Part shown: positions 17,201 to 54,500 of the stretch, piece by piece
How positions within the stretch are numbered: position 1 is the stretch's first letter
How the letters are laid out: each line of letters begins with the position of its first letter
From: the human T2T-CHM13v2.0 reference genome, Homo sapiens
Reading direction: 5' to 3'
DNA length: 64,000 nt
Assembly: GCA_009914755.4 (NCBI GenBank)
Contig: CP086569.2
Location: forward strand, 28,000,001 to 28,064,000
Notes under the pieces: model-generated
Database searches by the model: none
What the model saw: the letters and a program-made list of their open reading frames with translations, nothing else
What the model was told of the DNA's origin: nothing
Made by a program: the position numbers and the translations under genes

Positions 17201-17825
17201 GAATGGAATCGAACGGAATGGAATAAAATGGAAGCAAACTGGCAAGAAATGGAATCGAAATGAATGGAGTGTTATGGAACGGACTCCAAAGGAATTGAAT
17301 GTAATAGAATGGAGTGGAGTGGACTCGAATATAATGGACTGGAATGGAATGAAATCACATGGAATGGGAACGAATGGAATGGAATGGAAAGGAATGGAAT
17401 CGAATGGAAAGGAATCGAATGGAAGGGAATGAAATTGAATCAACAGGAATGGAAGGGAATAGAATAGACGGTAATGGAATGGACTCGAATAGAATGGACA
17501 CGAATGCTCAAATTGAATGGACTCGAATGGAATGGAAACGAAAGGAATGTCATCGAATGGAATTGAATCGATTGGAATGAAATGGCATAGAATGGAGTGG
17601 AATCAAATGGAATTGAATCGAAAGGAAAGGAAGCGAATGGACTGAAATGAAATGGAATGGAATTGAATGGAAAGGAAAGCAATGGAATAGAATGGAACGA
17701 AATTTCACGGAATGGAATCAAACTGAATGGAATCAAATCAATGGAATATAATCAAATGGAATGGAAAGGAATTGATTGGAGTAGATGGGATTGGATGGGA
17801 TTGGAATGAAATGTACTGGAAAGGA
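14252..17825 (+). repeat. HOR unit 5, 3574 bp (long variant).
   Basis: Landmark spacing is 3574 bp. Confidence 0.9.
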
Positions 17826-20800: not shown

Positions 20801-21399
20801 AATGGAAGCAAACTGGCAAGAAATGGAATCGAAATGAATGGAGTGTTATGGAACGGACTCCAAAGGAATTGAATGTAATAGAATGGAGTGGAGTGGACTC
20901 GAATATAATGGACTGGAATGGAATGAAATCACATGGAATGGGAACGAATGGAATGGAATGGAAAGGAATGGAATCGAATGGAAAGGAATCGAATGGAAGG
21001 GAATGAAATTGAATCAACAGGAATGGAAGGGAATAGAATAGACGGTAATGGAATGGACTCGAATAGAATGGACACGAATGCTCAAATTGAATGGACTCGA
21101 ATGGAATGGAAACGAAAGGAATGTCATCGAATGGAATTGAATCGATTGGAATGAAATGGCATAGAATGGAGTGGAATCAAATGGAATTGAATCGAAAGGA
21201 AAGGAAGCGAATGGACTGAAATGAAATGGAATGGAATTGAATGGAAAGGAAAGCAATGGAATAGAATGGAACGAAATTTCACGGAATGGAATCAAACTGA
21301 ATGGAATCAAATCAATGGAATATAATCAAATGGAATGGAAAGGAATTGATTGGAGTAGATGGGATTGGATGGGATTGGAATGAAATGTACTGGAAAGGA
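17826..21399 (+). repeat. HOR unit 6, 3574 bp (long variant, sub-block 6-8).
   Basis: Landmark spacing is 3574 bp. It shares private variants with units 7 and 8: 'cataaatgg', 'aaaggaaaggg', 'gaatacaatgg' and 'ggaattgtatgg'. Confidence 0.9.
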
Positions 21400-24973: not shown

Positions 24974-27900
24974 CTCGAATTTCATGAAACGGAATGGAAT
25001 GAATTGGAACGGAATGGACTCGAATGGAATGGAATGTCATGGAATGGCATCAAATGGAATGGCATCAAATGGAATGGAATCGAATGCAATGGAATGCTAT
25101 GGAATGGAATGGAATGCATTGGAATGGAATGTCCTCTAATGGAATGGATTCGAGTGGAATGGAATCGAATATAATGGAGTCGAATGAAATGGAATTGAAA
25201 GGAAAGGGATCGAATACAATGGAATATACTGGAATGTAATGTAATGAACTCGAATGTAATTGACTGGAATGGAATGTACATAAATGGAATGTAATCAAAT
25301 GGAAAGTAATCCAATGGAATAGAATCTAATGCAATAAAATCGACTCAGATAGAGTAGAATGTAATGGAATGGAGTGCAGTGCAATGGAATGGAATGGAAT
25401 GGAATGCAATGGAATGGAATGGAATGGGATGGAATTGTATGGAATGGAATGGAATGGAATGGAATGGGATGGAATGGTATGGAATGGATAGAAATGGACT
25501 GGAGTGAAATGGACTGGAAAGGAATGGACTCAAATTGAAAGGGCTCGAAAGGAATGGAGTCAAATGGAATGGTCTGGAATGGAATGAACACGAATGTAAT
25601 GCAATCCAATAGAATGGAATCGAATGGCATGGAATATAAAGAAATGGAATCGAAGAGAATGGAAACAAACGGAATGGAATTGAATGGAATGGAATTGAAT
25701 GGAATGGGAACGAATGGAGTGAAATTGTATGCAGTAGAAGAGAATACAATGGAATGCAAGCGAAAGGAAAGGAATGGATTGGAATGGAATGGAATTCATT
25801 GGAATGGAAGGGAATGTAGTGTAATGGACAGGCCTGGAATAAAGTGGAATGCTACGGTCTCGAATGGAATAAAAATGTATGGAATGGAATGCAATGAAAC
25901 GGAATCGAATGTCATAGAATGTAATGGAATGCAAAAAAATTTACTCCAAAATCATTGACTGGAAAGGCTGGGTGTCGAAAGGAATTGACTCCAATGGAAT
26001 GGAATCGAATGGAATGGAAGTGAATAGAATCGAACTAAATCGAATGGAATGGAATTGATAGGAACGGAATGGAAAGGAATGAAATGATTTGGCATGGAAT
26101 GGAATCGAATGGCATCGAATGGAATGGAATGGAATGCAATGCAATGGAATGTATTAGAATGTAATGAACTTTAATGGAATGTACTCGAATGGATTCGACT
26201 GGAATGGAATGTTCTGGAAGTGAATGGACTCCAATGGAATGGATTGAAAAGGAATGGAATCGTACGGAATGGAATCTAATGGAATGGAATTAAATGGAAA
26301 TGAATGAAATTGAATACCACGGAATTGAATTGAATGGAATCGAATGCAATGCAATCTAATGAAACGGAAAGGAAAGGAATGGAATGGAATGGAATGGGCT
26401 GGAATGGAAAGGAATCGAAACGAATGGAATGGAATCGAACTGAAGAGACTGGAATGGAATGCACTGGAATGGAAGGGAGTGTAATGGAAGGTTCTCGAAA
26501 AAAATGGAATCGAATGGAATGGAATTGAATGGAACGGAATAGAGTCGAATGGAATTGAATGGAATGGAATGGACTAGAGTGAAATGGAATCGAACCACAA
26601 GGAATGGACAGGAACAGAATGGTCTCGAATTGAATGGAATCGTATGGAATGGCATCAAACGGAATGGAATGGACAGCCACGGAATGGAATGCACTCGAAT
26701 GCAATGGAGTCGAAACTAATGGACTGGAATAGAATGGACTCGACTGGTACGGACTCCAATGGAATGGAATCGAATGGAAGGGAATCGAACGGAATGGACT
26801 CGAAGGGAAAAGACTGCAATGGAAAGGTCTCGAATGGAATGGAAATTAATGGAATGGAATGGAATCGAATGAAATGGAGTCAATAGGAATGGAATCGAAT
26901 GGCAAGAAATCGAATGTAATGGAATCGCAAGGAATTGATGTGAATGGAACGGAATGGAATGGAATTCAAAGAAATGGAATAGAATGGAATGGAATCGAAT
27001 GGAAAGAACTCGAATGGAAATCACTCGAACAGAATGCAATTTAATAAAATAGGATGAAATGTAATGGAATGGAATGGAAAGGAATCGAAACGAAAGGAAT
27101 GGAGACAGATGGAATGGAATGGAACAGATAGCAATGGTATAGAATGGAATGGAATCATCTGGAATGGAATTGAATGGAATGGAATAATATGAAATGGAAT
27201 GGAATGGAATGGAATGCCCTTGAATTAAATGGACTGGAATGGAATGGACTCGAACAGAGTGGAATGGAAAGTGTTGAGATAGAATGGAATGGACTCCTTT
27301 GGAATGTCTAGTATGCAATGCAATGGACTGGCAGGGAATCAAAAGGAATGTAATCGAATGGATTGGACTGGAATGCAATGGACTCGAATAGATTGGAAAC
27401 GGAATGCAAAGGAATGGAATGGAATAGTATGGAATGGAATGGAAAGGAATGGAGTGGAATAGACTAGAGTGGAATGGAATGGACTCGAAAGCAATGGACT
27501 GGAATGGAACTTTCTTGAATGGACTGGAATCAAACGGAATGGAATGCAATGCAATCAAATGGCATGGAATAAAATAGAATGAAAGAGAATCAAATGGAAT
27601 TGAATCGAATGCAATCGAATGGATTGGAAAGGAATAGAATGGAATGGAATGGAATTGACTCAAATGGAATGGACTAGAATGGAATGGATTCGAATGGAAG
27701 GCAAAGGAATGGAATCTATTGGAATGGACAGCAATGGAATGGAAAGGAAGGGATTGGAATGGACTCGAATGGAATGGACTGCAATAGAAAGGATTCGAAT
27801 GGAATGAAAAAGAATTGAATGGAATAGAACAGAATGGAATCAAATCGAATGAAATGGAATGGAATAGAAAGGAATGGAATGAAATGGAATGGAAAGGATT

Positions 27901-28546
27901 CGAATGGAATGCAATCGAATGGAATGGAATCGAACGGAATGGAATAAAATGGAAGCAAACTGGCAAGAAATGGAATCGAAATGAATGGAGTGTTATGGAA
28001 CGGACTCCAAAGGAATTGAATGTAATAGAATGGAGTGGAGTGGACTCGAATATAATGGACTGGAATGGAATGAAATCACATGGAATGGGAACGAATGGAA
28101 TGGAATGGAAAGGAATGGAATCGAATGGAAAGGAATCGAATGGAAGGGAATGAAATTGAATCAACAGGAATGGAAGGGAATAGAATAGACGGTAATGGAA
28201 TGGACTCGAATAGAATGGACACGAATGCTCAAATTGAATGGACTCGAATGGAATGGAAACGAAAGGAATGTCATCGAATGGAATTGAATCGATTGGAATG
28301 AAATCGCATAGAATGGAGTGGAATCAAATGGAATTGAATCGAAAGGAAAGGAAGCGAATGGACTGAAATGAAATGGAATGGAATTGAATGGAAAGTAAAG
28401 CAATGGAATAGAATGGAACGAAATTTCACGGAATGGAATCAAACTGAATGGAATCAAATCAATGGAATATAATCAAATGGAATGGAAAGGAATTGAATGG
28501 AGTAGATGGGATTGGATGGGATTGGAATGAAATGTACTGGAAAGGA
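24974..28546 (+). repeat. HOR unit 8, 3573 bp (long variant with a 1-bp deletion).
   Basis: Landmark spacing is 3573 bp. It reads 'tttggaatgtctag' at about 27301-27310 where the other units read 'tttggaatggtctag'. It is the last unit carrying the 40-bp duplication. Confidence 0.9.
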
Positions 28547-31500
28547 CTCGAATTTCATGAAACGGAATGGAATGAATTGGAACGGAATGGACTCGAATGG
28601 AATGGAATGTCATGGAATGGCATCAAATGGAATGGCATCAAATGGAATGGAATCGAATGCAATGGAATGCTATGGAATGGAATGGAATGCATTGGAATGG
28701 AATGTCCTCTAATGGAATGGATTCGAGTGGAATGGAATCGAATATAATGGAGTCGAATGAAATGGAATTGAAAGGAATGGGATCGAATATAATGGAATAT
28801 ACTGGAATGTAATGTAATGAACTCGAATGTAATTGACTGGAATGGAATGTACATGAATGGAATGTAATCGAATGGAAAGTAATCCAATGGAATAGAATCT
28901 AATGCAATAAAATCGACTCAGATAGAGTAGAATGTAATGGAATGGAGTGCAGTGCAATGGAATGGAAAGGAATGGAATGCAATGGAATGGAATGGAATTG
29001 GATGGAATGGTATGGAATGGATAGTAATGGACTGGAATGAAATGGACTGGAAAGGAATGGACTCAAATTGAAAGGGCTCGAAAGGAATGGAGTCAAATGG
29101 AATGGTCTGGAATGGAATGAACACGAATGTAATGCAATCCAATAGAATGGAATCGAATGGCATGGAATATAAAGAAATGGAATCGAAGAGAATGGAAACA
29201 AACGGAATGGAATTGAATGGAATGGAATGGAATGGAATGGGAACGAATGGAGTGAAATTGTATGCAGTAGAAGAGAATAGAATGGAATGCAAGCGAAAGG
29301 AAAGGAATGGATTGGATTGGAATGGAATTCATTGGAATGGAAGGGAATGTAGTGTAATGGACAGGCCTGGAATAAAGTGGAATGCTACGGTCTCGAATGG
29401 AATAAAAATGTATGGAATGGAATGCAATGAAACGGAATCGAATGTCATAGAATGTAATGGAATGCAAAAAAATGGACTCCAAAATCATTGACTGGAAAGG
29501 CTGGGTGTCAAAAGGAATTGACTCCAATGGAATGGAATCGAATGGAATGGAAGTGAATAGAATCGAACTAAATCGAATGGAATGGAATTGATAGGAACGG
29601 AATGGAAAGGAATGAAATGATTTGGCATGGAATGGAATCGAATGGCATCGAATGGAATGGAATGGAATGCAATGCAATGGAATGTATTAGAATGTAATGA
29701 ACTTTAATGGAATGTACTCGAATGGATTCGACTGGAATGGAATGTTCTGGAAGTGAATGGACTCCAATGGAATGGATTCAAAAGGAATGGAATCGTACGG
29801 AATGGAATCTAATGGAATGGAATTAAATGGAAATGAATCAAATTGAATAGCACGGAATTGAATTGAATGGAATCGAATGCAATGCAATCTAATGAAACGG
29901 AAAGGAAAGGAATGGAATGGAATGGAATGGGCTGGAATGGAAAGGAATCGAAACGAATGGAATGGAATCGAACTGAAGAGACTGGAATGGAATGCACTGG
30001 AATGGAAGGGAGTGTAATGGAAGGTTCTCGAAATAAATGGAATCGAATGGAATGGAATTGAATGGAATGGAATAGAGTCGAATGGAATTGAATGGAATGG
30101 AATGGACTAGAGTGAAATGGAATCGAACCACAAGGAATGGACAGGAATAGAATGGTCTCGAATTGAATGGAATCGTATGGAATGGCATCAAACGGAATGG
30201 AATGGACAGCCACGGAATGGAATGCACTCGAATGCAATGGAGTCGAAACTAATGGACTGGAATAGAATGGACTCGACTGGTACGGACTCCAATGGAATGG
30301 AATCGAATGGAAGGGAATCGAACGGAATGGACTCGAAGGGAAAAGACTGCAATGGAAAGGTCTCGAATGGAATGGAAATTAATGGAATGGAATGGAATCG
30401 AATGAAATGGAGTCAAAAGGAATGGAATCGAATGGCAAGAAATCGAATGTAATGGAATCGCAAGGAATTGATGTGAACGGAACGGAATGGAATGGAATCC
30501 AAAGAAATGGAATAGAATGGAATGGAATCGAATGGAAAGAACTCGAATGGAAATCACTCGAATAGAATGCAATTTAATAAAATAGGATGAAATGTAATGG
30601 AATGGAATGGAAAGGAATCGAAACGAAAGGAATGGAGACAGATGGAATGGAATGGAACAGAGAGCAATGGTATAGAATGGAATGGAATCATCTGGAATGG
30701 AATTGAATGGAATGGAATAATATGAAATGGAATGGAATGGAATGGAATGCCCTTGAATTAAATGGACTGGAATGGAATGGACTCGAACAGAGTGGAATGG
30801 AAAGTGTTGAGATAGAATGGAATGGACTCCTTTGGAATGGTCTAGTATGCAATGCAATGGACTGGCAGGGAATCAAAAGGAATGTAATCGAATGGATTGG
30901 ACTGGAATGCAATGGACTCGAATAGATTGGAAACGGAATGCAAAGGAATGGAATGGAATAGTATGGAATGGAATGGAAAGGAATGGAGTGGAATAGACTA
31001 GAGTGGAATGGAATGGACTCGAAAGCAATGGACTGGAATGGAACTTTCTTGAATGGACTGGAATCAAACGGAATGGAATGCAATGCAATCAAATGGCATG
31101 GAATAAAATAGAATGAAAGAGAATCAAATGGAATTGAATCGAATGCAATCGAATGGATTGGAAAGGAATAGAATGGAATGGAATGGAATTGACTCAAATG
31201 GAATGGACTAGAATGGAATGGATTCGAATGGAAGGCAAAGGAATGGAATCTATCGGAATGGACAGCAATGGAATGGAAAGGAAGGGATTGGAATGGACTC
31301 GAATGGAATGGACTGCAATAGAAAGGATTCGAATGGAATGAAAAAGAATTGAATGGAATAGAACAGAATGGAATCAAATCGAATGAAATGGAATGGAATA
31401 GAAAGGAATGGAATGAAATGGAATGGAAAGGATTCGAATGGAATGCAATCGAATGGAATGGAATCGAACGGAATGGAATAAAATGGAAGCAAACTGGCAA

Positions 31501-32080
31501 GAAATGGAATCGAAATGAATGGAGTGTTATGGAACGGACTCCAAAGGAATTGAATGTAATAGAATGGAGTGGAGTGGACTCGAATATAATGGACTGGAAT
31601 GGAATGAAATCACATGGAATGGGAACGAATGGAATGGAATGGAAAGGAATGGAATCGAATGGAAAGGAATCGAATGGAAGGGAATGAAATTGAATCAACA
31701 GGAATGGAAGGGAATAGAATAGACGGTAATGGAATGGACTCGAATAGAATGGACACGAATGCTCAAATTGAATGGACTCGAATGGAATGGAAACGAAAGG
31801 AATGTCATCGAATGGAATGGAATCGATTGGAATGAAATCGCATAGAATGGAGTGGAATCAAATGGAATTGAATCGAAAGGAAAGGAAGCGAATGGACTGA
31901 AATGAAATGGAATGGAATTGAATGGAAAGTAAAGCAATGGAATAGAATGGAACGAAATTTCACGGAATGGAATCAAACTGAATGGAATCAAATCAATGGA
32001 ATATAATCAAATGGAATGGAAAGGAATTGAATGGAGTAGATGGGATTGGATGGGATTGGAATGAAATGTACTGGAAAGGA
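28547..32080 (+). repeat. HOR unit 9, 3534 bp (short variant, no 40-bp duplication).
   Basis: Landmark spacing is 3534 bp. There is a single copy of 'gggatggaatggtatggaatggatag' at about 28990-29030. Confidence 0.9.
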
Positions 32081-35613: not shown

Positions 35614-38600
35614 CTCGAATTTCATGAAACGGAATGGAATGAATTGGAACGGAATGGACTCGAATGGAATGGAATGTCATGGAATGGCATCAAATGGAAT
35701 GGCATCAAATGGAATGGAATCGAATGCAATGGAATGCTATGGAATGGAATGGAATGCATTGGAATGGAATGTCCTCTAATGGAATGGATTCGAGTGGAAT
35801 GGAATCGAATATAATGGAGTCGAATGAAATGGAATTGAAAGGAATGGGATCGAATACAATGGAATATACTGGAATGTAATGTAATGAAGTCGAATGTAAT
35901 TGACTGGAATGGAATGTACATGAATGGAATGTAATCGAATGGAAAGTAATCCAATGGAATAGAATCAAATGCAATAAAATCGACTCAGATAGAGTAGAAT
36001 GTAATGGAATGGAGTGCAGTGCAATGGAATGGAATGGAATGGAATGCAATGGAATGGAATAGAATGGGATGGAATGGTATGGAATGGATAGTAATGGACT
36101 GGAGTGAAATGGACTGGAAAGGAATGGACTCAAATTGAAAGGGCTCGAAAGGAATGGAGTCAAATGGAATGGTCTGGAATGGAATGAACACGAATGTAAT
36201 GCAATCCAATAGAATGGAATCGAATGGCATGGAATATAAAGAAATGGAATCGAAGAGAATGGAAACAAACGGAATGGAATTGAATGGAATGGAATTGAAT
36301 GGAATGGGAACGAATGGAGTGAAATTGTATGCAGTAGAAGAGAATAGAATGGAATGCAAGCGAAAGGAAAGGAATGGATTGGAATGGAATGGAATTCATG
36401 GGAATGGAAGGGAATGTAGTGTAATGGACAGGCCTGGAATAAAGTGGAATGCTACGGTCTCGAATGGAATAAAAATGTATGGAATGGAATGCAAAGAAAC
36501 GGAATCGAATGTCATAGAATGTAATGGAATGCAAAAAAATGGACTCCAAAATCATTGACTGGAAAGGCTGGGTGTCGAAAGGAATTGACTCCAATGGAAT
36601 GGAATCGAATGGAATGGAAGTGAATAGAATCGAACTAAATCGAATGGAATGGAATTGATAGGAACGGAATGGAAAGGAATGAAATGATTTGGCATGGAAT
36701 GGAATCGAATGGCATCGAATGGAATGGAATGGAATGCAATGCAATGGAATGTATTAGAATGTAATGAACTTTAATGGAATGTACTCGAATGGATTCGACT
36801 GGAATGGAATGTTCTGGAAGTGAATGGACTCCAATGGAATGGATTGAAAAGGAATGGAATCGTACGGAATGGAATCTAATGGAATGGAATTAAATGGAAA
36901 TGAATGAAATTGAATAGCACGGAATTGAATTGAATGGAATCGAATGCAGTGGAATCTAATGAAACGGAAAGGAAAGGAATGGAATGGAATGGAATGGGCT
37001 GGAATGGAAAGGAATCGAAACGAATGGAATGGAATCGAACTGAAGAGACTGGAATGGAATGCACTGGAATGGAAGGGAGTGTAATGGAAGGTTCTCGAAA
37101 AAAATGGAATCGAATGGAATGGAATTGAATGGAACGGAATAGAGTCGAATGGAATTCAATGGAATGGAATGGACTAGAGTGAAATGGAATCGAACCAGAA
37201 GGAATGGACAGGAATAGAATGGTATCGAATTGAATGGAATCGTATGGAATGGCATCAAACGGAATGGAATGGACAGCCACGGAATGGAATGCACTCGAAT
37301 GCAATGGAGTCGAAACTAATGGACTGGAATAGAATGGACTCGACTGGTACGGACTCCAATGGAATGGAATCGAATGGAAGGGAATCGAACGGAATGGACT
37401 CGAAGGGAAAAGACTGCAATGGAAAGGTCTCGAATGGAATGGAAATTAATGGAATGGAATGGAATCGAATGAAATGGAGTCAAAAGGAATGGAATCGAAT
37501 GGCAAGAAATCGAATGTAATGGAATCGCAAGGAATTGATGTGAACGGAACGGAATGGAATGGAATCCAAAGAAATGGAATAGAATGGAATGGAATCGAAT
37601 GGAAAGAACTCGAATGGAAATCACTCGAATAGAATGCAATTTAATAAAATAGGATGAAATGTAACGGAATGGAATGGAAAGGAATCGAAACGAAAGGAAT
37701 GGAGACAGATGGAATGGAATGGAACAGAGAGCAATGGTATAGAATGGAATGGAATCATCTGGAATGGAATTGAATGGAATGGAATAATATGAAATGGAAT
37801 GGAATGGAATGGAATGCCCTTGAATTAAATGGACTGGAATGGAATGGACTCTAACAGAGTGGAATGGAAAGTGTTGAGATAGAATGGAATGGACTCCTTT
37901 GGAATGGTCTAGTATGCAATGCAATGGACTGGCAGGGAATCAAAAGGAATGTAATCGAATGGATTGGACTGGAATGCAATGGACTCGAATAGATTGGAAA
38001 CGGAATGCAAAGGAATGGAATGGAATAGTATGGAATGGAATGGAAAGGAATGGAGTGGAATAGACTAGAGTGGAATGGAATGGACTCGAAAGCAATGGAC
38101 TGGAATGGAACTTTCTTGAATGGACTGGAATCAAACGGAATGGAATGCAATGCAATCAAATGGCATGGAATAAAATAGAATGAAAGAGAATCAAATGGAA
38201 TTGAATCGAATGCAATCGAATGGATTGGAAAGGAATAGAATGGAATGGAATGGAATTGACTCAAATGGAATGGACTAGAATGGAATGGATTCGAATGGAA
38301 GGCAAAGGAATGGAATCTATCGGAATGGACAGCAATGGAATGGAAAGGAAGGGATTGGAATGGACTCGAATGGAATGGACTGCAATAGAAAGGATTCGAA
38401 TGGAATGAAAAAGAATTGAATGGAATAGAACAGAATGGAATCAAATCGAATGAAATGGAATGGAATAGAAAGGAATGGAATGAAATGGAATGGAAAGGAT
38501 TCGAATGGAATGCAATCGAATGGAATGGAATCGAACGGAATGGAATAAAATGGAAGCAAACTGGCAAGAAATGGAATCGAAATGAATGGAGTGTTATGGA

Positions 38601-39147
38601 ACGGACTCCAAAGGAATTGAATGTAATAGAATGGAGTGGAGTGGACTCGAATATAATGGACTGGAATGGAATGAAATCACATGGAATGGGAACGAATGGA
38701 ATGGAATGGAAAGGAATGGAATCGAATGGAAAGGAATCGAATGGAAGGGAATGAAATTGAATCAACAGGAATGGAAGGGAATAGAATAGACGGTAATGGA
38801 ATGGACTCGAATAGAATGGACACGAATGCTCAAATTGAATGGACTCGAATGGAATGGAAACGAAAGGAATGTCATCGAATGGAATTGAATCGATTGGAAT
38901 GAAATCGCATAGAATGGAGTGGAATCAAATGGAATTGAATCGAAAGGAAAGGAAGCGAATGGACTGAAATGAAATGGAATGGAATTGAATGGAAAGTAAA
39001 GCAATGGAATAGAATGGAACGAAATTTCACGGAATGGAATCAAACTGAATGGAATCAAATCAATGGAATATAATCAAATGGAATGGAAAGGAATTGAATG
39101 GAGTAGATGGGATTGGATGGGATTGGAATGAAATGTACTGGAAAGGA
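35614..39147 (+). repeat. HOR unit 11, 3534 bp (short variant).
   Basis: Landmark spacing is 3534 bp. Confidence 0.9.
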
Positions 39148-40991
39148 CTCGAATTTCATGAAACGGAATGGAATGAATTGGAACGGAATGGACTCGAATG
39201 GAATGGAATGTCATGGAATGGCATCAAATGGAATGGCATCAAATGGAATGGAATCGAATGCAATGGAATGCTATGGAATGGAATGGAATGCATTGGAATG
39301 GAATGTCCTCTAATGGAATGGATTCGAGTGGAATGGAATCGAATATAATGGAGTCGAATGAAATGGAATCTCAAGGAATTGATGTGAACGGAACGGAATG
39401 GAATGGAATCCAAAGAAATGGAATAGAATGGAATGGAATCGAATGGAAAGAACTCGAATGGAAATCACTCGAATAGAATGCAATTTAATAAAATAGGATG
39501 AAATGTAACGGAATGGAATGGAAAGGAATCGAAACGAAAGGAATGGAGACAGATGGAATGGAATGGAACAGAGAGCAATGGTATAGAATGGAATGGAATC
39601 ATCTGGAATGGAATTGAATGGAATGGAATAATATGAAATGGAATGGAATGGAATGGAATGCCCTTGAATTAAATGGACTGGAATGGAATGGACTCGAACA
39701 GAGTGGAATGGAAAGTGTTGAGATAGAATGGAATGGACTCCTTTGGAATGGTCTAGTATGCAATGCAATGGACTGGCAGGGAATCAAAAGGAATGTAATC
39801 GAATGGATTGGACTGGAATGCAATGGACTCGAATAGATTGGAAACGGAATGCAAAGGAATGGAATGGAATAGTATGGAATGGAATGGAAAGGAATGGAGT
39901 GGAATAGACTAGAGTGGAATGGAATGGACTCGAAAGCAATGGACTGGAATGGAACTTTCTTGAATGGACTGGAATCAAACGGAATGGAATGCAATGCAAT
40001 CAAATGGCATGGAATAAAATAGAATGAAAGAGAATCAAATGGAATTGAATCGAATGCAATCGAATGGATTGGAAAGGAATAGAATGGAATGGAATGGAAT
40101 TGACTCAAATGGAATGGACTAGAATGGAATGGATTCGAATGGAAGGCAAAGGAATGGAATCTATCGGAATGGACAGCAATGGAATGGAAAGGAAGGGATT
40201 GGAATGGACTCGAATGGAATGGACTGCAATAGAAAGGATTCGAATGGAATGAAAAAGAATTGAATGGAATAGAACAGAATGGAATCAAATCGAATGAAAT
40301 GGAATGGAATAGAAAGGAATGGAATGAAATGGAATGGAAAGGATTCGAATGGAATGCAATCGAATGGAATGGAATCGAACGGAATGGAATAAAATGGAAG
40401 CAAACTGGCAAGAAATGGAATCGAAATGAATGGAGTGTTATGGAACGGACTCCAAAGGAATTGAATGTAATAGAATGGAGTGGAGTGGACTCGAATATAA
40501 TGGACTGGAATGGAATGAAATCACATGGAATGGGAACGAATGGAATGGAATGGAAAGGAATGGAATCGAATGGAAAGGAATCGAATGGAAGGGAATGAAA
40601 TTGAATCAACAGGAATGGAAGGGAATAGAATAGACGGTAATGGAATGGACTCGAATAGAATGGACACGAATGCTCAAATTGAATGGACTCGAATGGAATG
40701 GAAACGAAAGGAATGTCATCGAATGGAATTGAATCGATTGGAATGAAATGGCATAGAATGGAGTGGAATCAAATGGAATTGAATCGAAAGGAAAGGAAGC
40801 GAATGGACTGAAATGAAATGGAATGGAATTGAATGGAAAGTAAAGCAATGGAATAGAATGGAACGAAATTTCACGGAATGGAATCAAACTGAATGGAATC
40901 AAATCAATGGAATATAATCAAATGGAATGGAAAGGAATTGAATGGAGTAGATGGGATTGGATGGGATTGGAATGAAATGTACTGGAAAGGA
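39148..40991 (+). repeat. HOR unit 12, truncated to 1844 bp by a ~1690-bp internal deletion.
   Basis: Landmark spacing is only 1844 bp. At about 39363-39375, 'cgaatgaaatggaatc|tcaaggaattgatgtgaacgg' joins unit offset ~220 directly to offset ~1911. This unit has no GGCC site. Confidence 0.85.
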
Positions 40992-43900
40992 CTCGAATTT
41001 CATGAAACGGAATGGAATGAATTGGAACGGAATGGACTCGAATGGAATGGAATGTCATGGAATGGCATCAAATGGAATGGCATCAAATGGAATGGAATCG
41101 AATGCAATGGAATGCTATGGAATGGAATGGAATGCATTGGAATGGAATGTCCTCTAATGGAATGGATTCGAGTGGAATGGAATCGAATATAATGGAGTCG
41201 AATGAAATGAAATTGAAAGGAATGGGATCGAATACAATGGAATATACTGGAATGTAATGTAATGAACTCGAATGTAATTGACTGGAATGGAATGTACATG
41301 AATGGAATGTAATCGAATGGAAAGTAATCCAATGGAATAGAATCTAATGCAATAAAATCGACTCAGATAGAGTAGAATGTAATGGAATGGAGTGCAGTGC
41401 AATGGAATGGAATGGAATGGAATGCAATGGAATGGAATGGAATGGGATGGAATGGTATGGAATGGATAGTAATGGACTGGAGTGAAATGGACTGGAAAGG
41501 AATGGACTCAAATTGAAAGGGCTCGAAAGGAATGGAGTCAAATGGAATGGTCTGGAATGAAATGAACACGAATGTAATGCAATCCAATAGAATGGAATCG
41601 AATGGCATGGAATATAAAGAAATGGAATCGAAGAGAATGGAAACAAACGGAATGGAATTGAATGGAATGGAATTGAATGGAATGGGAACGAATGGAGTGA
41701 AATTGTATGCAGTAGAAGAGAATAGAATGGAATGCAAGCGAAAGGAAAGGAATGGATTGGAATGGAATGGAATTCATTGGAATGGAAGGGAATGTAGTGT
41801 AATGGACAGGCCTGGAATAAAGTGGAATGCTACGGTCTCGAATGGAATAAAAATGTATGGAATGGAATGCAAAGAAACGGAATCGAATGTCATAGAATGT
41901 AATGGAATGCAAAAAAATGGACTCCAAAATCATTGACTGGAAAGGCTGGGTGTCGAAAGGAATTGACTCCAATGGAATGGAATCGAATGGAATGGAAGTG
42001 AATAGAATCGAACTAAATCGAATGGAATGGAATTGATAGGAACGGAATGGAAAGGAATGAAATGATTTGGCATGGAATGGAATCGAATGGCATCGAATGG
42101 AATGGAATGGAATGCAATGCAATGGAATGTATTAGAATGTAATGAACTTTAATGGAATGTACTCGAATGGATTCGACTGGAATGGAATGTTCTGGAAGTG
42201 AATGGACTCCAATGGAATGGATTCAAAAGGAATGGAATCGTACGGAATGGAATCTAATGGAATGGAATTAAATGGAAATGAATCAAATTGAATAGCACGG
42301 AATTGAATTGAATGGAATCGAATGCAATGGAATCTAATGAAACGGAAAGGAAAGGAATGGAATGGAATGGAATGGGCTGGAATGGAAAGGAATCGAAACG
42401 AATGGAATGGAATCGAACTGAAGAGACTGGAATGGAATGCACTGGAATGGAAGGGAGTGTAATGGAAGGTTCTCGAAAAAAATGGAATCGAATGGAATGG
42501 AATTGAATGGAACGGAATAGAGTCGAATGGAATTGAATGGAATGGAATGGACTAGAGTGAAATGGAATCGAACCACAAGGAATGGACAGGAATAGAATGG
42601 TCTCGAATTGAATGGAATCGTATGGAATGGCATCAAACGGAATGGAATGGACAGCCACGGAATGGAATGCACTCGAATGCAATGGAGTCGAAACTAATGG
42701 ACTGGAATAGAATGGACTCGACTGGTACGGACTCCAATGGAATGGAATCGAATTGAAGGGAATCGAACGGAATGGACTCGAAGGGAAAAGACTGCAATGG
42801 AAAGGTCTCGAATGGAATGGAAATTAATGGAATGGAATGGAATCGAATGAAATGGAGTCAAAAGGAATGGAATCGAATGGCAAGAAATCGAATGTAATGG
42901 AATCGCAAGGAATTGATGTGAACGGAACGGAATGGAATGGAATCCAAAGAAATGGAATAGAATGGAATGGAATCGAATGGAAAGAACTCGAATGGAAATC
43001 ACTCGAATAGAATGCAATTTAATAAAATAGGATGAAATGTAATGGAATGGAATGGAAAGGAATCGAAACGAAAGGAATGGAGACAGATGGAATGGAATGG
43101 AACAGAGAGCAATGGTATAGAATGGAATGGAATCATCTGGAATGGAATTGAATGGAATGGAATAATATGAAATGGAATGGAATGGAATGGAATGCCCTTG
43201 AATTAAATGGACTGGAATGGAATGGACTCGAACAGAGTGGAATGGAAAGTGTTGAGATAGAATGGAATGGACTCCTTTGGAATGGTCTAGTATGCAATGC
43301 AATGGACTGGCAGGGAATCAAAAGGAATGTAATCGAATGGATTGGACTGGAATGCAATGGACTCGAATAGATTGGAAACGGAATGCAAAGGAATGGAATG
43401 GAATAGTATGGAATGGAATGGAAAGGAATGGAGTGGAATAGACTAGAGTGGAATGGAATGGACTCGAAAGCAATGGACTGGAATGGAACTTTCTTGAATG
43501 GACTGGAATCAAACGGAATGGAATGCAATGCAATCAAATGGCATGGAATAAAATAGAATGAAAGAGAATCAAATGGAATTGAATCGAATGGAATCGAATG
43601 GATTGGAAAGGAATAGAATGGAATGGAATGGAATTGACTCAAATGGAATGGACTAGAATGGAATGGATTCGAATGGAAGGCAAAGGAATGGAATCTATCG
43701 GAATGGACAGCAATGGAATGGAAAGGAAGGGATTGGAATGGACTCGAATGGAATGGACTGCAATAGAAAGGATTCGAATGGAATGAAAAAGAATTGAATG
43801 GAATAGAACAGAATGGAATCAAATCGAATGAAATGGAATGGAATAGAAAGGAATGGAATGAAATGGAATGGAAAGGATTCGAATGGAATGCAATCGAATG

Positions 43901-48059: not shown

Positions 48060-51000
48060 CTCGAATTTCATGAAACGGAATGGAATGAATTGGAACGGAA
48101 TGGACTCGAATGGAATGGAATGTCATGGAATGGCATCAAATGGAATGGAATCGAATGCAATGGAATGCTATGGAATGGAATGGAATGCATTGGAATGGAA
48201 TGTCCTCTAATGGAATGGATTCGAGTGGAATGGAATCGAATATAATGGAGTCGAATGAAATGGAATTGAAAGGAATGGGATCGAATACAATGGAATATAC
48301 TGGAATGTAATGTAATGAACTCGAATGTAATTGACTGGAATGGAATGTACATGAATGGAATGTAATCGAATGGAAAGTAATCCAATGGAATAGAATCTAA
48401 TGCAATAAAATCGACTCAGATAGAGTAGAATGTAATGGAATGGAGTGCAGTGCAATGGAATGGAATGGAATGGAATGCAATGGAATGGAATGGAATGGAA
48501 TGGAATGGGATGGAATGGTATGGAATGGATAGTAATGGACTGGAGTGAAATGGACTGGAAAGGAATGGACTCAAATTGAAAGGGCTCGAAAGGAATGGAG
48601 TCAATTGGAATGGTCTGGAATGGAATGAACACGAATGTAATGCAATCCAATAGAATGGAATCGAATGGCATGGAATATAAAGAAATGGAATCGAAGAGAA
48701 TGGAAACAAATGGAATGGAATTGAATGGAATGGAATTGAATGGAATGGGAACGAATGGAGTGAAATTGTATGCAGTAGAAGAGAATAGAATGGAATGCAA
48801 GCGAAAGGAAAGGAATGGATTGGAATGGAATGGAATTCATTGGAATGGAAGGGAATGTAGTGTAATGGACAGGCCTGGAATAAAGTGGAATGCTACGGTC
48901 TCGAATGGAATAAAAATGTATGGAATGGAATGCAATGAAACGGAATCGAATGTCATAGAATGTAATGGAATGCAAAAAAATGGACTCCAAAATCATTGAC
49001 TGGAAAGGCTGGGTGTCGAAAGGAATTGACTCCAATGGAATGGAATCGAATGGAATGGAAGTGAATAGAATCGAACTAAATCGAATGGAATGGAATTGAT
49101 AGGAACGGAATGGAAAGGAATGAAATGATTTGGCATGGAATGGAATCGAATGGCATCGAATGGAATGGAATGGAATGCAATGCAATGGAATGTATTAGAA
49201 TGTAATGAACTTTAATGGAATGTACTCGAATGGATTCGACTGGAATGGAATGTTCTGGAAGTGAATGGACTCCAATGGAATGGATTCAAAAGGAATGGAA
49301 TCGTACGGAATGGAATCTAATGGAATGGAATTAAATGGAAATGAATGAAATTGAATAGCACGGAATTGAATTGAATGGAATCGAATGCAATGGAATCTAA
49401 TGAAACGGAAAGGAAAGGAATGGAATGGAATGGAATGGGCTGGAATGGAAAGGAATCGAAACGAATGGAATGGAATCGAACTGAAGAGACTGGAATGGAA
49501 TGCACTGGAATGGAAGGGAGTGTAATGGAAGGTTCTCGAAAAAAATGGAATCGAATGGAATGGAATTGAATGGAACGGAATAGAGTCGAATGGAATTGAA
49601 TGGAATGGAATGGACTAGAGTGAAATGGAATCGAACCACAAGGAATGGACAGGAATAGAATGGTCTCGAATTGAATGGAATCGTATGGAATGGCATCAAA
49701 CGGAATGGAATGGACAGCCACGGAATGGAATGCACTCGAATGCAATGGAGTCGAAACTAATGGACTGGAATAGAATGGACTCGACTGGTACGGACTCCAA
49801 TGGAATGGAATCGAATGGAAGGGAATCGAACGGAATGGACTCGAAGGGAAAAGATTGCAATGGAAAGGTCTCGAATGGAATGGAAATTAATGGAATGGAA
49901 TGGAATCGAATGAAATGGAGTCAAAAGGAATGGAATCGAATGGCAAGAAATCGAATGTAATGGAATCGCAAGGAATTGATGTGAACGGAACGGAATGGAA
50001 TGGAATCCAAAGAAATGGAATAGAATGGAATGGAATCGAATGGAAAGAACTCGAATGGAAATCACTCGAATAGAATGCAATTTAATAAAATAGGATGAAA
50101 TGTAATGGAATGGAATGGAAAGGAATCGAAACGAAAGGAATGGAGACAGATGGAATGGAATGGAACAGAGAGCAATGGTATAGAATGGAATGGAATCATC
50201 TGGAATGGAATTGAATGGAATGGAATAATATGAAATGGAATGGAATGGAATGGAATGCCCTTGAATTAAATGGACTGGAATGGAATGGACTCGAACAGAG
50301 TGGAATGGAAAGTGTTGAGATAGAATGGAATGGACTCCTTTGGAATGGTCTAGTATGCAATGCAATGGACTGGCAGGGAATCAAAAGGAATGTAATCGAA
50401 TGGATTGGACTGGAATGCAATGGACTCGAATAGATTGGAAACGGAATGCAAAGGAATGGAATGGAATAGTATGGAATGGAATGGAAAGGAATGGAGTGGA
50501 ATAGACTAGAGTGGAATGGAATGGACTCGAAAGCAATGGACTGGAATGGAACTTTCTTGAATGGACTGGAATCAAACGGAATGGAATGCAATGCAATCAA
50601 ATGGCATGGAATAAAATAGAATGAAAGAGAATCAAATGGAATTGAATCGAATGGAATCGAATGGATTGGAAAGGAATAGAATGGAATGGAATGGAATTGA
50701 CTCAAATGGAATGGACTACAATGGAATGGATTCGAATGGAAGGCAAAGGAATGGAATCTATCGGAATGGACAGCAATGGAATGGAAAGGAAGGGATTGGA
50801 ATGGACTCGAATGGAATGGACTGCAATAGAAAGGATTCGAATGGAATGAAAAAGAATTGAATGGAATAGAACAGAATGGAATCAAATCGAATGAAATGGA
50901 ATGGAATAGAAAGGAATGGAATGAAATGGAATGGAAAGGATTCGAATGGAATGCAATCGAATGGAATGGAATCGAACGGAATGGAATAAAATGGAAGCAA

Positions 51001-51588
51001 ACTGGCAAGAAATGGAATCGAAATGAATGGATTGTTATGGAACGGACTCCAAAGGAATTGAATGTAATAGAATGGAGTGGAGTGGACTCGAATATAATGG
51101 ACTGGAATGGAATGAAATCACATGGAATGGGAACGAATGGAATGGAATGGAAAGGAATGGAATCGAATGGAAAGGAATCGAATGGAAGGGAATGAAATTG
51201 AATCAACAGGAATGGAAGGGAATAGAATAGACGGTAATGGAATGGACTCGAATAGAATGGACACGAATGCTCAAATTGAATGGACTCGAATGGAATGGAA
51301 ACGAAAGGAATGTCATCGAATGGAATTGAATCGATTGGAATGAAATCGCATAGAATGGAGTGGAATCAAATGGAATTGAATCGAAAGGAAAGGAAGCGAA
51401 TGGACTGAAATGAAATGGAATGGAATTGAATGGAAAGTAAAGCAATGGAATAGAATGGAACGAAATTTCACGGAATGGAATCAAACTGAATGGAATCAAA
51501 TCAATGGAATATAATCAAATGGAATGGAAAGGAATTGAATGGAGTAGATGGGATTGGATGGGATTGGAATGAAATGTACTGGAAAGGA
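48060..51588 (+). repeat. HOR unit 15, 3529 bp (short variant with a 15-bp deletion and a 10-bp expansion).
   Basis: It has one copy rather than two of 'ggcatcaaatggaat' at about 48125-48140. It has two extra ggaat pentamers at about 48470-48500. Confidence 0.9.
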
Positions 51589-54500
51589 CTCGAATTTCAT
51601 GAAACGGAATGGAATGAATTGGAACGGAATGGACTCGAATGGAATGGAATGTCATGGAATGGCATCAAATGGAATGGCATCAAATGGAATGGAATCGAAT
51701 GCAATGGAATGCTATGGAATGGAATGGAATGCATTGGAATGGAATGTCCTCTAATGGAATGGATTCGAGTGGAATGGAATCGAATATAATGGAGTCGAAT
51801 GAAATGGAATTGAAAGGAATGGGATCGAATACAATGGAATATACTGGAATGTAATGTAATGAACTCGAATGTAATTGACTGGAATGGAATGTACATGAAT
51901 GGAATGTAATCGAATGGAAAGTAATCCAATGGAATAGAATCTAATGCAATAAAATCGACTCAGATAGAGTAGAATGTAATGGAATGGAGTGCAGTGCAAT
52001 GGAATGGAATGGAATGGAATGCAATGGAATGGAATGGAATGGGATGGAATGGTATGGAATGGATAGTAATGGACTGGAGTGAAATGGACTGGAAAGGAAT
52101 GGACTCAAATTGAAAGGGCTCGAAAGGAATGGAGTCAAATGGAATGGTCTGGAATGGAATGAACACGAATGTAATGCAATCCAATAGAATGGAATCGAAT
52201 GGCATGGAATATAAAGAAATGGAATCGAAGAGAATGGAAACAAACGGAATGGAATTGAATGGAATGGAATTGAATGGAATGGGAACGAATGGAGTGAAAT
52301 TGTATGCAGTAGAAGAGAATAGAATGGAATGCAAGCGAAAGGAAAGGAATGGATTGGAATGGAATGGAATTCATGGGAATGGAAGGGAATGTAGTGTAAT
52401 GGACAGGCCTGGAATAAAGTGGAATGCTACGGTCTCGAATGGAATAAAAATGTATGGAATGGAATGCAAAGAAACGGAATCGAATGTCATAGAATGTAAT
52501 GGAATGCAAAAAAATGGACTCCAAAATCATTGACTGGAAAGGCTGGGTGTCGAAAGGAATTGACTCCAATGGAATGGAATCGAATGGAATGGAAGTGAAT
52601 AGAATCGAACTAAATCGAATGGAATGGAATTGATAGGAACGGAATGGAAAGGAATGAAATGATTTGGCATGGAATGGAATCGAATGGCATCGAATGGAAT
52701 GGAATGGAATGGAATGCAATGGAATGTATTAGAATGTAATGAACTTTAATGGAATGTACTCGAATGGATTCGACTAGAATGGAATGTTCTGGAAGTGAAT
52801 GGACTCCAATGGAATGGATTGAAAAGGAATGGAATCGTACGGAATGGAATCTAATGGAATGGAATTAAATGGAAATGAATGAAATTGAATAGCACGGAAT
52901 TGAATTGAATGGAATCGAATGCAATGGAATCTAATGAAACGGAAAGGAAAGGAATGGAATGGAATGGAATGGGCTGGAATGGAAAGGAATCGAAACGAAT
53001 GGAATGGAATCGAACTGAAGAGACTGGAATGGAATGCACTGGAATGGAAGGGAGTGTAATGGAAGGTTCTCGAAAAAAATGGAATCGAATGGAATGGAAT
53101 TGAATGGAACGGAATAGAGTCGAATGGAATTGAATGGAATGGAATGGACTAGAGTGAAATGGAATCGAACCACAAGGAATGGACAGGAATAGAATGGTCT
53201 CGAATTGAATGGAATCGTATGGAATGGCATCAAACGGAATGGAATGGACAGCCACGGAATGGAATGCACTCGAATGCAATGGAGTCGAAACTAATGGACT
53301 GGAATAGAATGGACTCGACTGGTACGGACTCCAATGGAATGGAATCGAATGGAAGGGAATCGAACGGAATGGACTCGAAGGGAAAAGACTGCAATGGAAA
53401 GGTCTCGAATGGAATGGAAATTAATGGAATGGAATGGAATCGAATGAAATGGAGTCAAAAGGAATGGAATCGAATGGCAAGAAATCGAATGTAATGGAAT
53501 CGCAAGGAATTGATGTGAACGGAACGGAATGGAATGGAATCCAAAGAAATGGAATAGAATGGAATGGAATCGAATGGAAAGAACTCGAATGGAAATCACT
53601 CGAATAGAATGCAATTTAATAAAATAGGATGAAATGTAACGGAATGGAATGGAAAGGAATCGAAACGAAAGGAATGGAGACAGATGGAATGGAATGGAAC
53701 AGAGAGCAATGGTATAGAATGGAATGGAATCATCTGGAATGGAATTGAATGGAATGGAATAATATGAAATGGAATGGAATGGAATGGAATGCCCTTGAAT
53801 TAAATGGACTGGAATGGAATGGACTCGAACAGAGTGGAATGGAAAGTGTTGAGATAGAATGGAATGGACTCCTTTGGAATGGTCTAGTATGCAATGCAAT
53901 GGACTGGCAGGGAATCAAAAGGAATGTAATCGAATGGATTGGACTGGAATGCAATGGACTCGAATAGATTGGAAACGGAATGCAAAGGAATGGAATGGAA
54001 TAGTATGGAATGGAATGGAAAGGAATGGAGTGGAATAGACTAGAGTGGAATGGAATGGACTCGAAAGCAATGGACTGGAATGGAACTTTCTTGAATGGAC
54101 TGGAATCAAACGGAATGGAATGCAATGCAATCAAATGGCATGGAATAAAATAGAATGAAAGAGAATCAAATGGAATTGAATCGAATGCAATCGAATGGAT
54201 TGGAAAGGAATAGAATGGAATGGAATGGAATTGACTCAAATGGAATGGACTAGAATGGAATGGATTCGAATGGAAGGCAAAGGAATGGAATCTATCGGAA
54301 TGGACAGCAATGGAATGGAAAGGAAGGGATTGGAATGGACTCGAATGGAATGGACTGCAATAGAAAGGATTCGAATGGAATGAAAAAGAATTGAATGGAA
54401 TAGAACAGAATGGAATCAAATCGAATGAAATGGAATGGAATAGAAAGGAATGGAATGAAATGGAATGGAAAGGATTCGAATGGAATGCAATCGAATGGAA

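What the first reader, a model, noticed from the sequence alone, without database searches (positions are those of the whole stretch)
39148..40991. One HOR unit is truncated by a ~1690-bp internal deletion at pentamer microhomology
The landmark spacing from 39148 to 40992 is 1844 bp instead of 3534 bp. At about 39363-39375 the junction 'gaaatggaatc|tcaaggaattgatgtgaacgg' joins unit offset ~220 to offset ~1911. In intact units the left flank continues 'ggaattgaaaggaatggg' and the right flank is 'gtaatggaatcgcaaggaattgatg'. Both breakpoints lie in 'aatggaat(c)', which gives 8-9 bp of microhomology. This is consistent with intra-unit slippage or unequal exchange. The deleted segment contains the unit's HaeIII site and the 154-bp amplicon, so the deletion would produce an atypical restriction fragment of about 5.4 kb.
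Basis: seen in the sequence. Interest (0 to 1): 0.5.

Follow-up and report, generated by a model that had tools for sequence, protein, structure and literature searches.

The report
Truncated DYZ1 satellite unit, microhomology deletion
One copy of the human Y-chromosome DYZ1 satellite repeat has lost 1,690 bp through a clean join at an 8-bp repeated motif, with a one-base scar beside the join; it is real but an ordinary kind of satellite variant.

Summary
The window is a tandem array of 18 complete human DYZ1 (HSat3A6) units of 3,529-3,574 bp. The unit at 39148-40991 is 1,844 bp. It aligns to its neighbours with a single 1,690-bp gap (338 pentamers, register kept) and no inserted sequence. The join lies in an exact 8-bp microhomology, AATGGAAT (39362-39369). 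The missing segment holds the unit's only HaeIII site and the 154-bp Y1.1/Y1.2 amplicon, so the HaeIII fragment across it is 5,378 bp.

T39371, two bases past the microhomology, matches neither parental flank, since both have G there. It is the unit's only private substitution and is absent from 70 other DYZ1 copies examined. This suggests, but does not prove, error-prone synthesis during the joining (chance about 0.007-0.02).

The two breakpoints share only the generic pentamer similarity of about 70%, and the 1,690-bp offset is not a special self-similarity offset. Out-of-register homologous exchange is therefore unlikely. A microhomology-guided template switch or annealing-based break repair fits best.

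Short DYZ1 units are already documented: published sizes run from 1,165 to 3,608 bp, with about 5% under 3 kb. Recurrence and assembly correctness could not be tested. Interest is low.

The parts
39148..40991 (.). Truncated DYZ1 unit U12, 1,844 bp instead of 3,534 bp
   Evidence: Landmark spacing. Two-block alignment to four intact units with a single 1,690-bp gap. MAFFT of all 18 units shows one gap at alignment columns 215-1944.
39148..39361 (.). Left retained segment, unit offsets 1-214, unambiguously of left-parent origin
   Evidence: 0 mismatches to the four intact units aligned. Across all 18 units, U1, U15 and U17 differ in this segment.
39362..39369 (.). Junction microhomology AATGGAAT, 8 bp, present at both parental breakpoints; the crossover point is ambiguous within it
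   Evidence: Three-way alignment A1, columns 53-60. P(>=8 bp by chance) is 0.028-0.105 depending on the null.
39370..39370 (.). C, the first base that is right-parent specific (the left parent has T)
   Evidence: column 61.
39371..39371 (.). T that matches neither parent (G in both flanks); the only private substitution of this unit; candidate repair scar
   Evidence: column 62; alignment column 1954 reads GAAAAAAGGGGTGGGGGG across the units, and this is the unit's sole singleton. 53 external DYZ1 copies carry 52 G and 1 A, no T. The 8-mer ATCTCAAG is unique in the window.
39372..40991 (.). Right retained segment, equivalent to unit offsets 1915-3534
   Evidence: Apart from T39371 it differs from U11, U16 and U18 at 2 positions each.
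35836..37525 (.). Equivalent, in the preceding intact unit U11, of the 1,690-bp segment missing from U12; placement is ambiguous by 8 bp (35828-37517 to 35836-37525)
36295..36448 (.). 154-bp Y1.2/Y1.1 amplicon and the HaeIII site (GGCC at 36431) of intact unit U11; both lie inside the segment deleted from U12
   Evidence: Primer and GGCC scan.
36431..41812 (.). Predicted atypical HaeIII fragment of 5,378 bp spanning the short unit (GGCC at 36431 to GGCC at 41809)
   Evidence: GGCC site list and spacings.

Best explanation
The window is human Y-chromosome DYZ1 (HSat3A6) satellite. Unit 39148-40991 is a genuine derivative of a neighbouring 3,534-bp-type unit that lost 1,690 bp (338 pentamers, GGAAT register kept) in one event. 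The two ends were joined by pairing of an 8-bp microhomology, AATGGAAT, which sits in a 28-nt patch of 24/28 identity. The process did not depend on long homology. It was either a replication template switch or slippage over about 1.7 kb (FoSTeS/MMBIR-like), or annealing-based repair of a double-strand break after resection (MMEJ or homeologous single-strand annealing). The G>T change two bases beyond the microhomology is most simply a misincorporation made during fill-in or restart synthesis in that event. Shown: the deletion structure, the microhomology, the lack of long homology, the uniqueness of the T, and the loss of the HaeIII site and amplicon. Inferred: the mechanism class, the link between the T and the deletion, and that the deletion is biological rather than an assembly error. 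No function is expected. The unit is a neutral structural marker in heterochromatin.
For: - Identity as DYZ1. Units are 3.53-3.57 kb and built of GGAAT pentamers, with one HaeIII site per unit and exact Y1.1/Y1.2 primer sites 154 bp apart. 52 public contaminant contigs match, 51 of them with a BLAST hit to U11 at a median identity of 97%. The literature describes DYZ1 in the same terms.
- Simple deletion. There is one 1,690-bp gap and no inserted bases, and the flanks are near-identical to the neighbours.
- Microhomology. AATGGAAT is present at both parental sites.
- No long homology. Shift 1690 ranks 792 of 3,524 shifts for self-identity. The local alignment score of the flanks is 246, against 232+-15 for random segment pairs. 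The unit contains 408 exact direct repeats of 15-28 nt that a process selecting for homology length could have used instead.
- Scar. T39371 is the unit's only singleton in 1,844 bp, and both parental flanks have G there. It is absent from the 17 other copies in the window and from 53 external copies. No 6-mer spanning the T occurs within +-200 nt of either breakpoint, so it was not templated locally. The singleton density of about 0.00124 per site gives a probability of about 0.007-0.02 that a private change falls in the 12-nt junction zone by chance.
- Literature. Pol theta has a high misincorporation rate, and BIR/MMBIR are described as error-prone, with point mutations acquired together with the rearrangement (PMC7407515; PMC4352052).
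Against: - The microhomology is only modestly above chance in this pentameric sequence: P is 0.03 for random pairs, 0.08-0.105 in register, and 0.02-0.107 with a fair extension statistic.
- The T lies at a CpG that is also polymorphic (G/A) among the units, so the site is mutable, and an independent later mutation is not excluded. CpG transversions are only about 1.7-fold enriched per site here.
- Pol theta is reported to sample microhomology within about 25 nt of the ends (PMC7407515). A 1.7-kb deletion by classical TMEJ would therefore need two breaks or long resection, so the sub-mechanism stays open.
- No reads were available to verify the assembly.
- Only one copy of the junction was seen anywhere.
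Confidence: 0.72

Rival explanations
1. The two ends were joined by classical non-homologous end joining after one or two breaks. The 8-bp identity is incidental, because almost any in-register pair of positions in a pentamer satellite shares some bases. The T is a non-templated end-processing error or a later mutation.
For: Microhomology of 8 bp or more arises by chance in 3% of random and 8-10% of in-register breakpoint pairs. The extension statistic gives P = 0.02-0.107. The untemplated base next to the join is also typical of end processing.
Against: The median chance microhomology is 1 bp, so 8 bp lies in the upper tail. Classical NHEJ typically uses 0-4 bp (established knowledge). The join keeps the pentamer register and lies in the best 28-nt imperfect match available at that shift (24/28, the maximum for shift 1690; this statistic was chosen post hoc).
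Confidence: 0.1
2. Out-of-register unequal sister-chromatid exchange or intrachromatid homologous recombination (NAHR) occurred between two parts of the repeat. It produced this 1,844-bp unit and a reciprocal 5,224-bp unit on the sister chromatid.
For: Yq12 arrays are thought to evolve by unequal exchange, and sister-chromatid exchanges are seen there (T2T-Y paper; Hallast et al. supplement). The deletion is in pentamer register.
Against: The misaligned flanks are only about 70-72% identical over +-20 to +-100 nt, and about 47% over the whole shift. Shift 1690 is not a favoured self-similarity offset, and the flank alignment score is within 1 SD of random segment pairs. That is far below the long, near-identical tracts that homologous recombination needs (established knowledge). 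No 5,224-bp reciprocal unit is present among the 18 units, although it need not lie on this chromatid.
Confidence: 0.06
3. The short unit is an assembly or consensus artefact, such as a misjoin, a chimeric read or a local collapse, and the T is a consensus error at the misjoin.
For: Yq12 is among the hardest regions to assemble and is frequently flagged in Y assemblies. The junction and the T were found nowhere else. No reads were available here.
Against: Collapses in tandem arrays normally remove whole units between near-identical sequences. They do not join two roughly 70%-identical positions at an 8-bp match. Flanking units are in perfect phase and otherwise normal. Short DYZ1 units are a documented feature of several independently assembled Y chromosomes.
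Confidence: 0.06
4. The deletion is real and microhomology-mediated, but T39371 is an unrelated point mutation. Either it arose later at a mutable CpG, or it was already present in the unsampled parental unit.
For: The position is the G of a CpG and is polymorphic (G or A) among the units. CpG sites carry more variants per site than other sites in this array. Only 18 complete units, out of the roughly 3,000-4,300 copies cited for a normal Y (PMC3925983), were examined.
Against: G>T is not the CpG deamination transition. It is the only private change in 1,844 bp and lies 2 nt from the junction core (chance about 0.007-0.02). No T was seen in 70 other copies.
Confidence: 0.3

Closest known systems
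Human DYZ1 / HSat3A6 satellite of Yq12 (about 3.56-kb HaeIII repeat)
   Same: Unit length is 3,529-3,574 bp. The unit is built of GGAAT/CATTC pentamers, has a single HaeIII site, and carries exact Y1.1/Y1.2 primer sites giving a 154-bp amplicon. These match the published descriptions.
   Different: This particular unit is 1,844 bp and lacks both the HaeIII site and the amplicon.
Short or variable-length DYZ1 units reported in complete Y assemblies (Hallast et al. 2023, supplement)
   Same: That study reports DYZ1 unit sizes of 1,165-3,608 bp, with about 5% under 3,000 bp, and virtual HaeIII fragments from under 25 bp to over 200 kbp. The present unit falls within that spectrum.
   Different: In the text I could read, that work gives size distributions only and does not characterise individual junctions, microhomology or junction-adjacent substitutions. 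Whether this exact 1,844-bp form is among them is unknown.
Microhomology-mediated deletions (MMEJ/TMEJ; FoSTeS/MMBIR template switching)
   Same: There is short exact homology at the join, no long homology, no inserted sequence, and a point change next to the junction, as described for error-prone Pol theta and MMBIR synthesis.
   Different: The sequence context is a pentameric satellite in which microhomology is cheap. The deletion of 1.7 kb is larger than typical Pol theta scars, which use microhomology within about 25 nt of the ends. Genetic requirements cannot be tested from sequence.
Small in-register indels of DYZ1 (5, 15, 20 bp and so on; Yadav et al. 2014, PMC3925983)
   Same: Register-preserving length changes in multiples of five, also seen in this window as 15-, 30- and 40-bp indels.
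   Different: The present event is two orders of magnitude larger. It joins non-adjacent parts of the unit rather than slipping by a few pentamers.

Membership tests
DYZ1 / HSat3A6 satellite | Tandem unit of about 3.5-3.6 kb | tested here: met
   17 of 18 complete units are 3,529-3,574 bp. The literature gives about 3.5-3.6 kb, with 3,564/3,569 bp the most common.
DYZ1 / HSat3A6 satellite | Built from diverged GGAAT (CATTC/TTCCA) pentamers | tested here: met
   The sequence shows it directly. Self-identity peaks at shifts that are multiples of 5.
DYZ1 / HSat3A6 satellite | One HaeIII (GGCC) site per unit | tested here: met
   18 GGCC sites, one in each of the 17 complete intact units and one in the partial unit at the window end, none in the short unit.
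DYZ1 / HSat3A6 satellite | Y1.1/Y1.2 primer pair giving the 154-bp male-specific amplicon | tested here: met
   The primer sequences were recalled from memory. They match exactly (one site has 1 mismatch) in each of the 17 complete intact units and in the partial unit at the window end, with a span of 154 bp.
DYZ1 / HSat3A6 satellite | Location in Yq12, alternating with DYZ2 blocks | not testable with these tools
   No human assemblies are available here, and the window contains only DYZ1.
Microhomology-mediated deletion (MMEJ/TMEJ or FoSTeS/MMBIR) | Short (about 2-20 bp) exact homology shared by both breakpoints, with one copy retained | tested here: met
   AATGGAAT, 8 bp. P by chance is 0.03-0.105.
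Microhomology-mediated deletion (MMEJ/TMEJ or FoSTeS/MMBIR) | No long high-identity homology at the breakpoints | tested here: met
   Flanks are about 70% identical, and the flank alignment score is not different from random segment pairs.
Microhomology-mediated deletion (MMEJ/TMEJ or FoSTeS/MMBIR) | Junction-proximal errors (misincorporations or templated insertions) from low-fidelity synthesis | tested here: inconclusive
   There is one untemplated G>T 2 nt from the microhomology, and it is the unit's sole private change. A coincidental CpG-site mutation is not excluded.
Microhomology-mediated deletion (MMEJ/TMEJ or FoSTeS/MMBIR) | Dependence on Pol theta, PARP1 and Lig3, or on a replicative template switch | not testable with these tools
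   This requires genetics or experimental systems.
NAHR / unequal homologous exchange | Breakpoints inside long, near-identical paralogous tracts | tested here: not met
   Identity is 47% over the whole shift and 70-72% locally. Shift 1690 ranks 792 of 3,524.
NAHR / unequal homologous exchange | Reciprocal duplication product (a 5,224-bp unit) | tested here: not met
   None is present among the 18 units in the window. It could exist on another chromatid or lineage, so the test is weak.
Assembly collapse or misjoin | Excess read depth or clipped reads at the junction, with no spanning reads | not testable with these tools
   No read data are available.

The most novel reading that the evidence does not exclude
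The junction-adjacent G>T is a true repair scar. Truncated DYZ1 units would then preserve, base by base, the signature of error-prone microhomology-mediated repair or template switching in the human male germline. A survey of the hundreds of sub-3-kb units implied by the published 5% figure, across complete Y assemblies, could then measure which pathway remodels Yq12 heterochromatin. This 1,844-bp unit would also serve as a lineage-specific structural marker.
Probability: 0.4. Interest if true: 0.3.

Novelty: new member of a known kind. Interest (0 to 1): 0.15.

Why it matters
This is a single neutral variant in heterochromatin with no expected function. Its modest value is as a clean worked example. 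It shows that DYZ1 units change not only by whole-unit unequal exchange and pentamer slippage, but also by kilobase-scale microhomology-guided deletion with a possible mutagenic scar. Such units remove the HaeIII site and the classical 154-bp sexing amplicon from that copy, which is irrelevant in practice given thousands of intact copies. They could serve as rare landmarks for tracing duplication history within Yq12 arrays or Y lineages.

Tried and rejected
- **Ancient half-unit duplication.** I tested whether the 1,690-bp offset reflects an ancient duplication of half the DYZ1 unit, which would make this a homologous exchange. It does not: circular self-identity at shift 1690 ranks 792 of 3,524, and the flank alignment score equals the random background.
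- **24/28 imperfect homology patch.** At first this looked significant (top 0.5% at that shift), but the window was chosen post hoc. A fair extension statistic gives only P = 0.02-0.107, so I do not rely on it.
- **Templated (synthesis-dependent MMEJ) origin of the T.** No 6-mer spanning the T occurs within +-200 nt of either breakpoint on either strand. The only ATCTCAA in a unit is on the minus strand about 350 nt away, which I judged to be chance.
- **Gene-conversion donor for the junction sequence.** ATCTCAAG is unique in the 64 kb. It is absent from the DYZ1 parts of 143 kb of external DYZ1 contigs; the two hits lie in non-satellite flanks.
- **Recurrence search.** The viral contig collection holds no DYZ1. 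The genome and metagenome collections gave 52 contaminant contigs with 53 copies of the site, all intact-type. Most are about one unit long or shorter, so I take them to be collapsed short-read consensus sequences that cannot reveal rare variants.
- **Whole units lost in the same event.** I looked at unit-to-unit variant patterns for evidence of this. The local alternation pattern is too irregular to decide.
- **Literature.** A search for DYZ1 plus microhomology found nothing relevant. One supplement search failed on term syntax.

Full report
**What is in the window.** A 40-nt landmark taken at 39148 recurs 19 times. It divides the window into 18 complete units of 3,574 bp (U1, U3-U7), 3,573 bp (U8), 3,534 or 3,533 bp (U9-U11, U13, U14, U16-U18) and 3,529 bp (U2, U15). 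The single outlier is U12, 39148-40991, at 1,844 bp. The sequence is built of diverged GGAAT pentamers, and self-identity peaks at shifts that are multiples of five. GGCC (HaeIII) occurs once in each of the 17 complete intact units and once in the partial unit at the window end. The classical DYZ1 sexing primers Y1.1 and Y1.2, whose sequences I recalled from memory, match at a 154-bp span in those same units, exactly at all but one site. This fits published descriptions of human DYZ1/HSat3A6 on Yq12: a HaeIII unit of about 3.5-3.6 kb, with 3,564/3,569 bp the most common, derived from a pentamer. A 36-nt DYZ1 pattern also retrieved 52 contaminant contigs from public bacterial 'genomes' and metagenomes; 51 gave a BLAST hit to U11, at a median identity of 97%.

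**Checking the observation.** Global alignment of U12 to four intact units always gives two blocks, of 214 nt and 1,630 nt. They are separated by one gap of 1,690 bp, with no unaligned bases in U12 and 3-11 mismatches. A MAFFT alignment of all 18 units shows the same single gap. The deletion equals 338 pentamers, so the GGAAT register is preserved.

A three-way alignment of the junction with the two parental sites in U11 shows the following:
- U12 follows the left parent through ...GAATGAAATGGAAT.
- AATGGAAT is shared by both parents: 39362-39369 in U12, 35828-35835 and 37518-37525 in U11.
- C39370 is right-parent specific.
- From 39372 onward U12 follows the right parent.

The deleted interval contains the HaeIII site (36431 in U11) and the amplicon (36295-36448). 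The HaeIII fragment across U12 is 5,378 bp, matching the predicted 'about 5.4 kb'.

Position 39371 is T, whereas both the left and the right parental flank have G at the aligned position (column 62). Among the other 17 copies in the window, this column is G 11 times and A 6 times. It is the only private (singleton) substitution of U12 in 1,844 bp. In 53 external DYZ1 copies the site is G 52 times and A once.

The 8-mer ATCTCAAG is unique in the 64-kb window and absent from the DYZ1 portions of the external contigs. No 6-mer spanning the T occurs within +-200 nt of either breakpoint. The T was therefore neither copied from a nearby template nor obtained from a visible conversion donor.

Singletons number 79 across the 18 units, about 0.00124 per site. 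The chance that a private change falls in the 12-nt junction zone is about 0.007-0.02. The site is the G of a CpG, but G>T is not the deamination transition, and CpG transversions are only about 1.7-fold enriched per site here. I read the T as a probable scar of the joining event. That is suggestive, not proven.

**Is the microhomology more than chance?** Only modestly. In an intact unit, exact microhomology of 8 bp or more arises in 2.8% of random breakpoint pairs, 8% of in-register pairs and 10.5% of positions at shift 1690. The two sites also share 24 of 28 positions, which is the maximum at that shift and in the top 0.5%, but I chose that window after seeing the data. A fair statistic, extending each way until two consecutive mismatches, gives 27 matches, with P = 0.02, 0.05 and 0.107 under the three nulls. 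The join did use similarity, but in this satellite similarity is cheap.

**Mechanism.** Long homology is absent:
- Shift 1690 has 47% linear self-identity and ranks 792 of 3,524 shifts.
- The flanks are 70-74% identical over +-20 to +-100 nt.
- Their local alignment score is 246, against 232+-15 for random segment pairs.
- The unit contains 408 exact direct repeats of 15-28 nt, which a process selecting for homology length could have used instead.

This argues against out-of-register homologous exchange (NAHR). It favours a microhomology-guided event, either a replicative template switch or slippage across about 1.7 kb, or annealing-based repair of a resected break. Both classes are described as error-prone. 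Pol theta has a high misincorporation rate (PMC7407515), and BIR/MMBIR generate point mutations together with rearrangements (PMC4352052). That is consistent with the T.

Pol theta is reported to sample microhomology within about 25 nt of the ends. A simple one-break TMEJ event is therefore not the most natural route to a 1.7-kb loss. I cannot discriminate between the sub-mechanisms from sequence.

Two caveats on size apply. The 40-bp indel that distinguishes 3,574- from 3,534-type units lies inside the deleted part, so the loss would be 1,730 bp if the parent was of the long type. U12's retained variants and its neighbours point to the short type. The simultaneous loss of additional whole units also cannot be excluded.

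**Rivals.**
- Classical end joining with incidental microhomology remains possible (confidence about 0.1).
- NAHR is unlikely (about 0.06).
- An assembly artefact cannot be tested without reads, but it is an odd fit. Collapses normally remove whole units between near-identical copies, whereas this junction joins roughly 70%-identical positions and the flanking units are in perfect phase (about 0.06).
- The T may be an unrelated mutation. I treat this as a separate question about the scar and give it about 0.3.

**Comparison with what is known, and novelty.** Hallast et al. report DYZ1 unit sizes from 1,165 to 3,608 bp, with 95% above 3,000 bp, and virtual HaeIII fragments from under 25 bp to over 200 kbp. 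Truncated units and atypical fragments are therefore an established feature of Yq12. Small in-register indels are also known and are present in this window. I found no paper describing individual junctions or DYZ1 microhomology. This is a new, well-resolved member of a known kind.

The exact junction was not found in any collection I could search. Most of those contigs are about one unit long or shorter, so I take them to be collapsed consensus sequences. The result therefore shows only that this is not a major form.

**Verdict.** It is biologically ordinary and of low interest (0.15). The decisive follow-ups are read-level validation and a junction search across complete Y assemblies.

Noticed in passing
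window 51589-55122 and 58657-62190 (also 48060-51588 versus 55123-58656): Units U16 and U18 are 100% identical over 3,534 bp. U15 and U17 differ by one substitution in their right halves (plus indels). This indicates a very recent two-unit duplication of about 7.07 kb within the array.
   Followed up: partly
window about 24974-32080: The array switches from 3,574-bp-type units (U1, U3-U8) to 3,534-bp-type units (U9-U18). The difference is a 40-bp indel at unit offset 435-474. U8 looks transitional: it keeps the 40-bp segment but carries short-type alleles at alignment columns 1999 and 2034.
   Followed up: partly
window 3575-7103 (U2) and 48060-51588 (U15): Both units are 3,529 bp. Each has a 30-bp gap at offset 445-474 plus a different 15-bp deletion (columns 2928-2942 in U2, columns 74-88 in U15). 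Nearly all indels in the window are multiples of 5 bp; the exceptions are two 1-bp indels in U8 and U10.
   Followed up: no
window 14252-21399 (U5, U6): U5 and U6 are identical in the right half of the unit but differ at 12 positions in the middle part. This mosaic similarity suggests patchy conversion or exchange between neighbouring units.
   Followed up: no
L001-L007 (genome contigs) and L008-L052 (metagenome contigs): Human male DYZ1 is present as contamination in contigs deposited as bacterial or archaeal genomes. Examples are BMRF01000076.1 Actinomadura cremea JCM 3308, BMTH01000092.1 and BMUF01000112.1 (Streptomyces JCM strains), a Nitrosocosmicus MAG and a Polyangiaceae MAG. It is also present in 45 metagenome contigs. 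Several are about 3.6 kb, roughly the length of one unit.
   Followed up: partly
window column equivalent to 39371 in all units (e.g. 1954, 5498, 37527): The CpG next to the right breakpoint is itself polymorphic between unit types. It is G in U1 and U8-U18 and A in U2-U7, which is consistent with CpG deamination on the opposite strand.
   Followed up: yes
window about 39717 (TTGAGAT on the + strand): The reverse complement, ATCTCAA, matches 7 nt of the junction including the odd T. It lies about 350 nt downstream, too far for a snap-back template, and is probably chance.
   Followed up: partly
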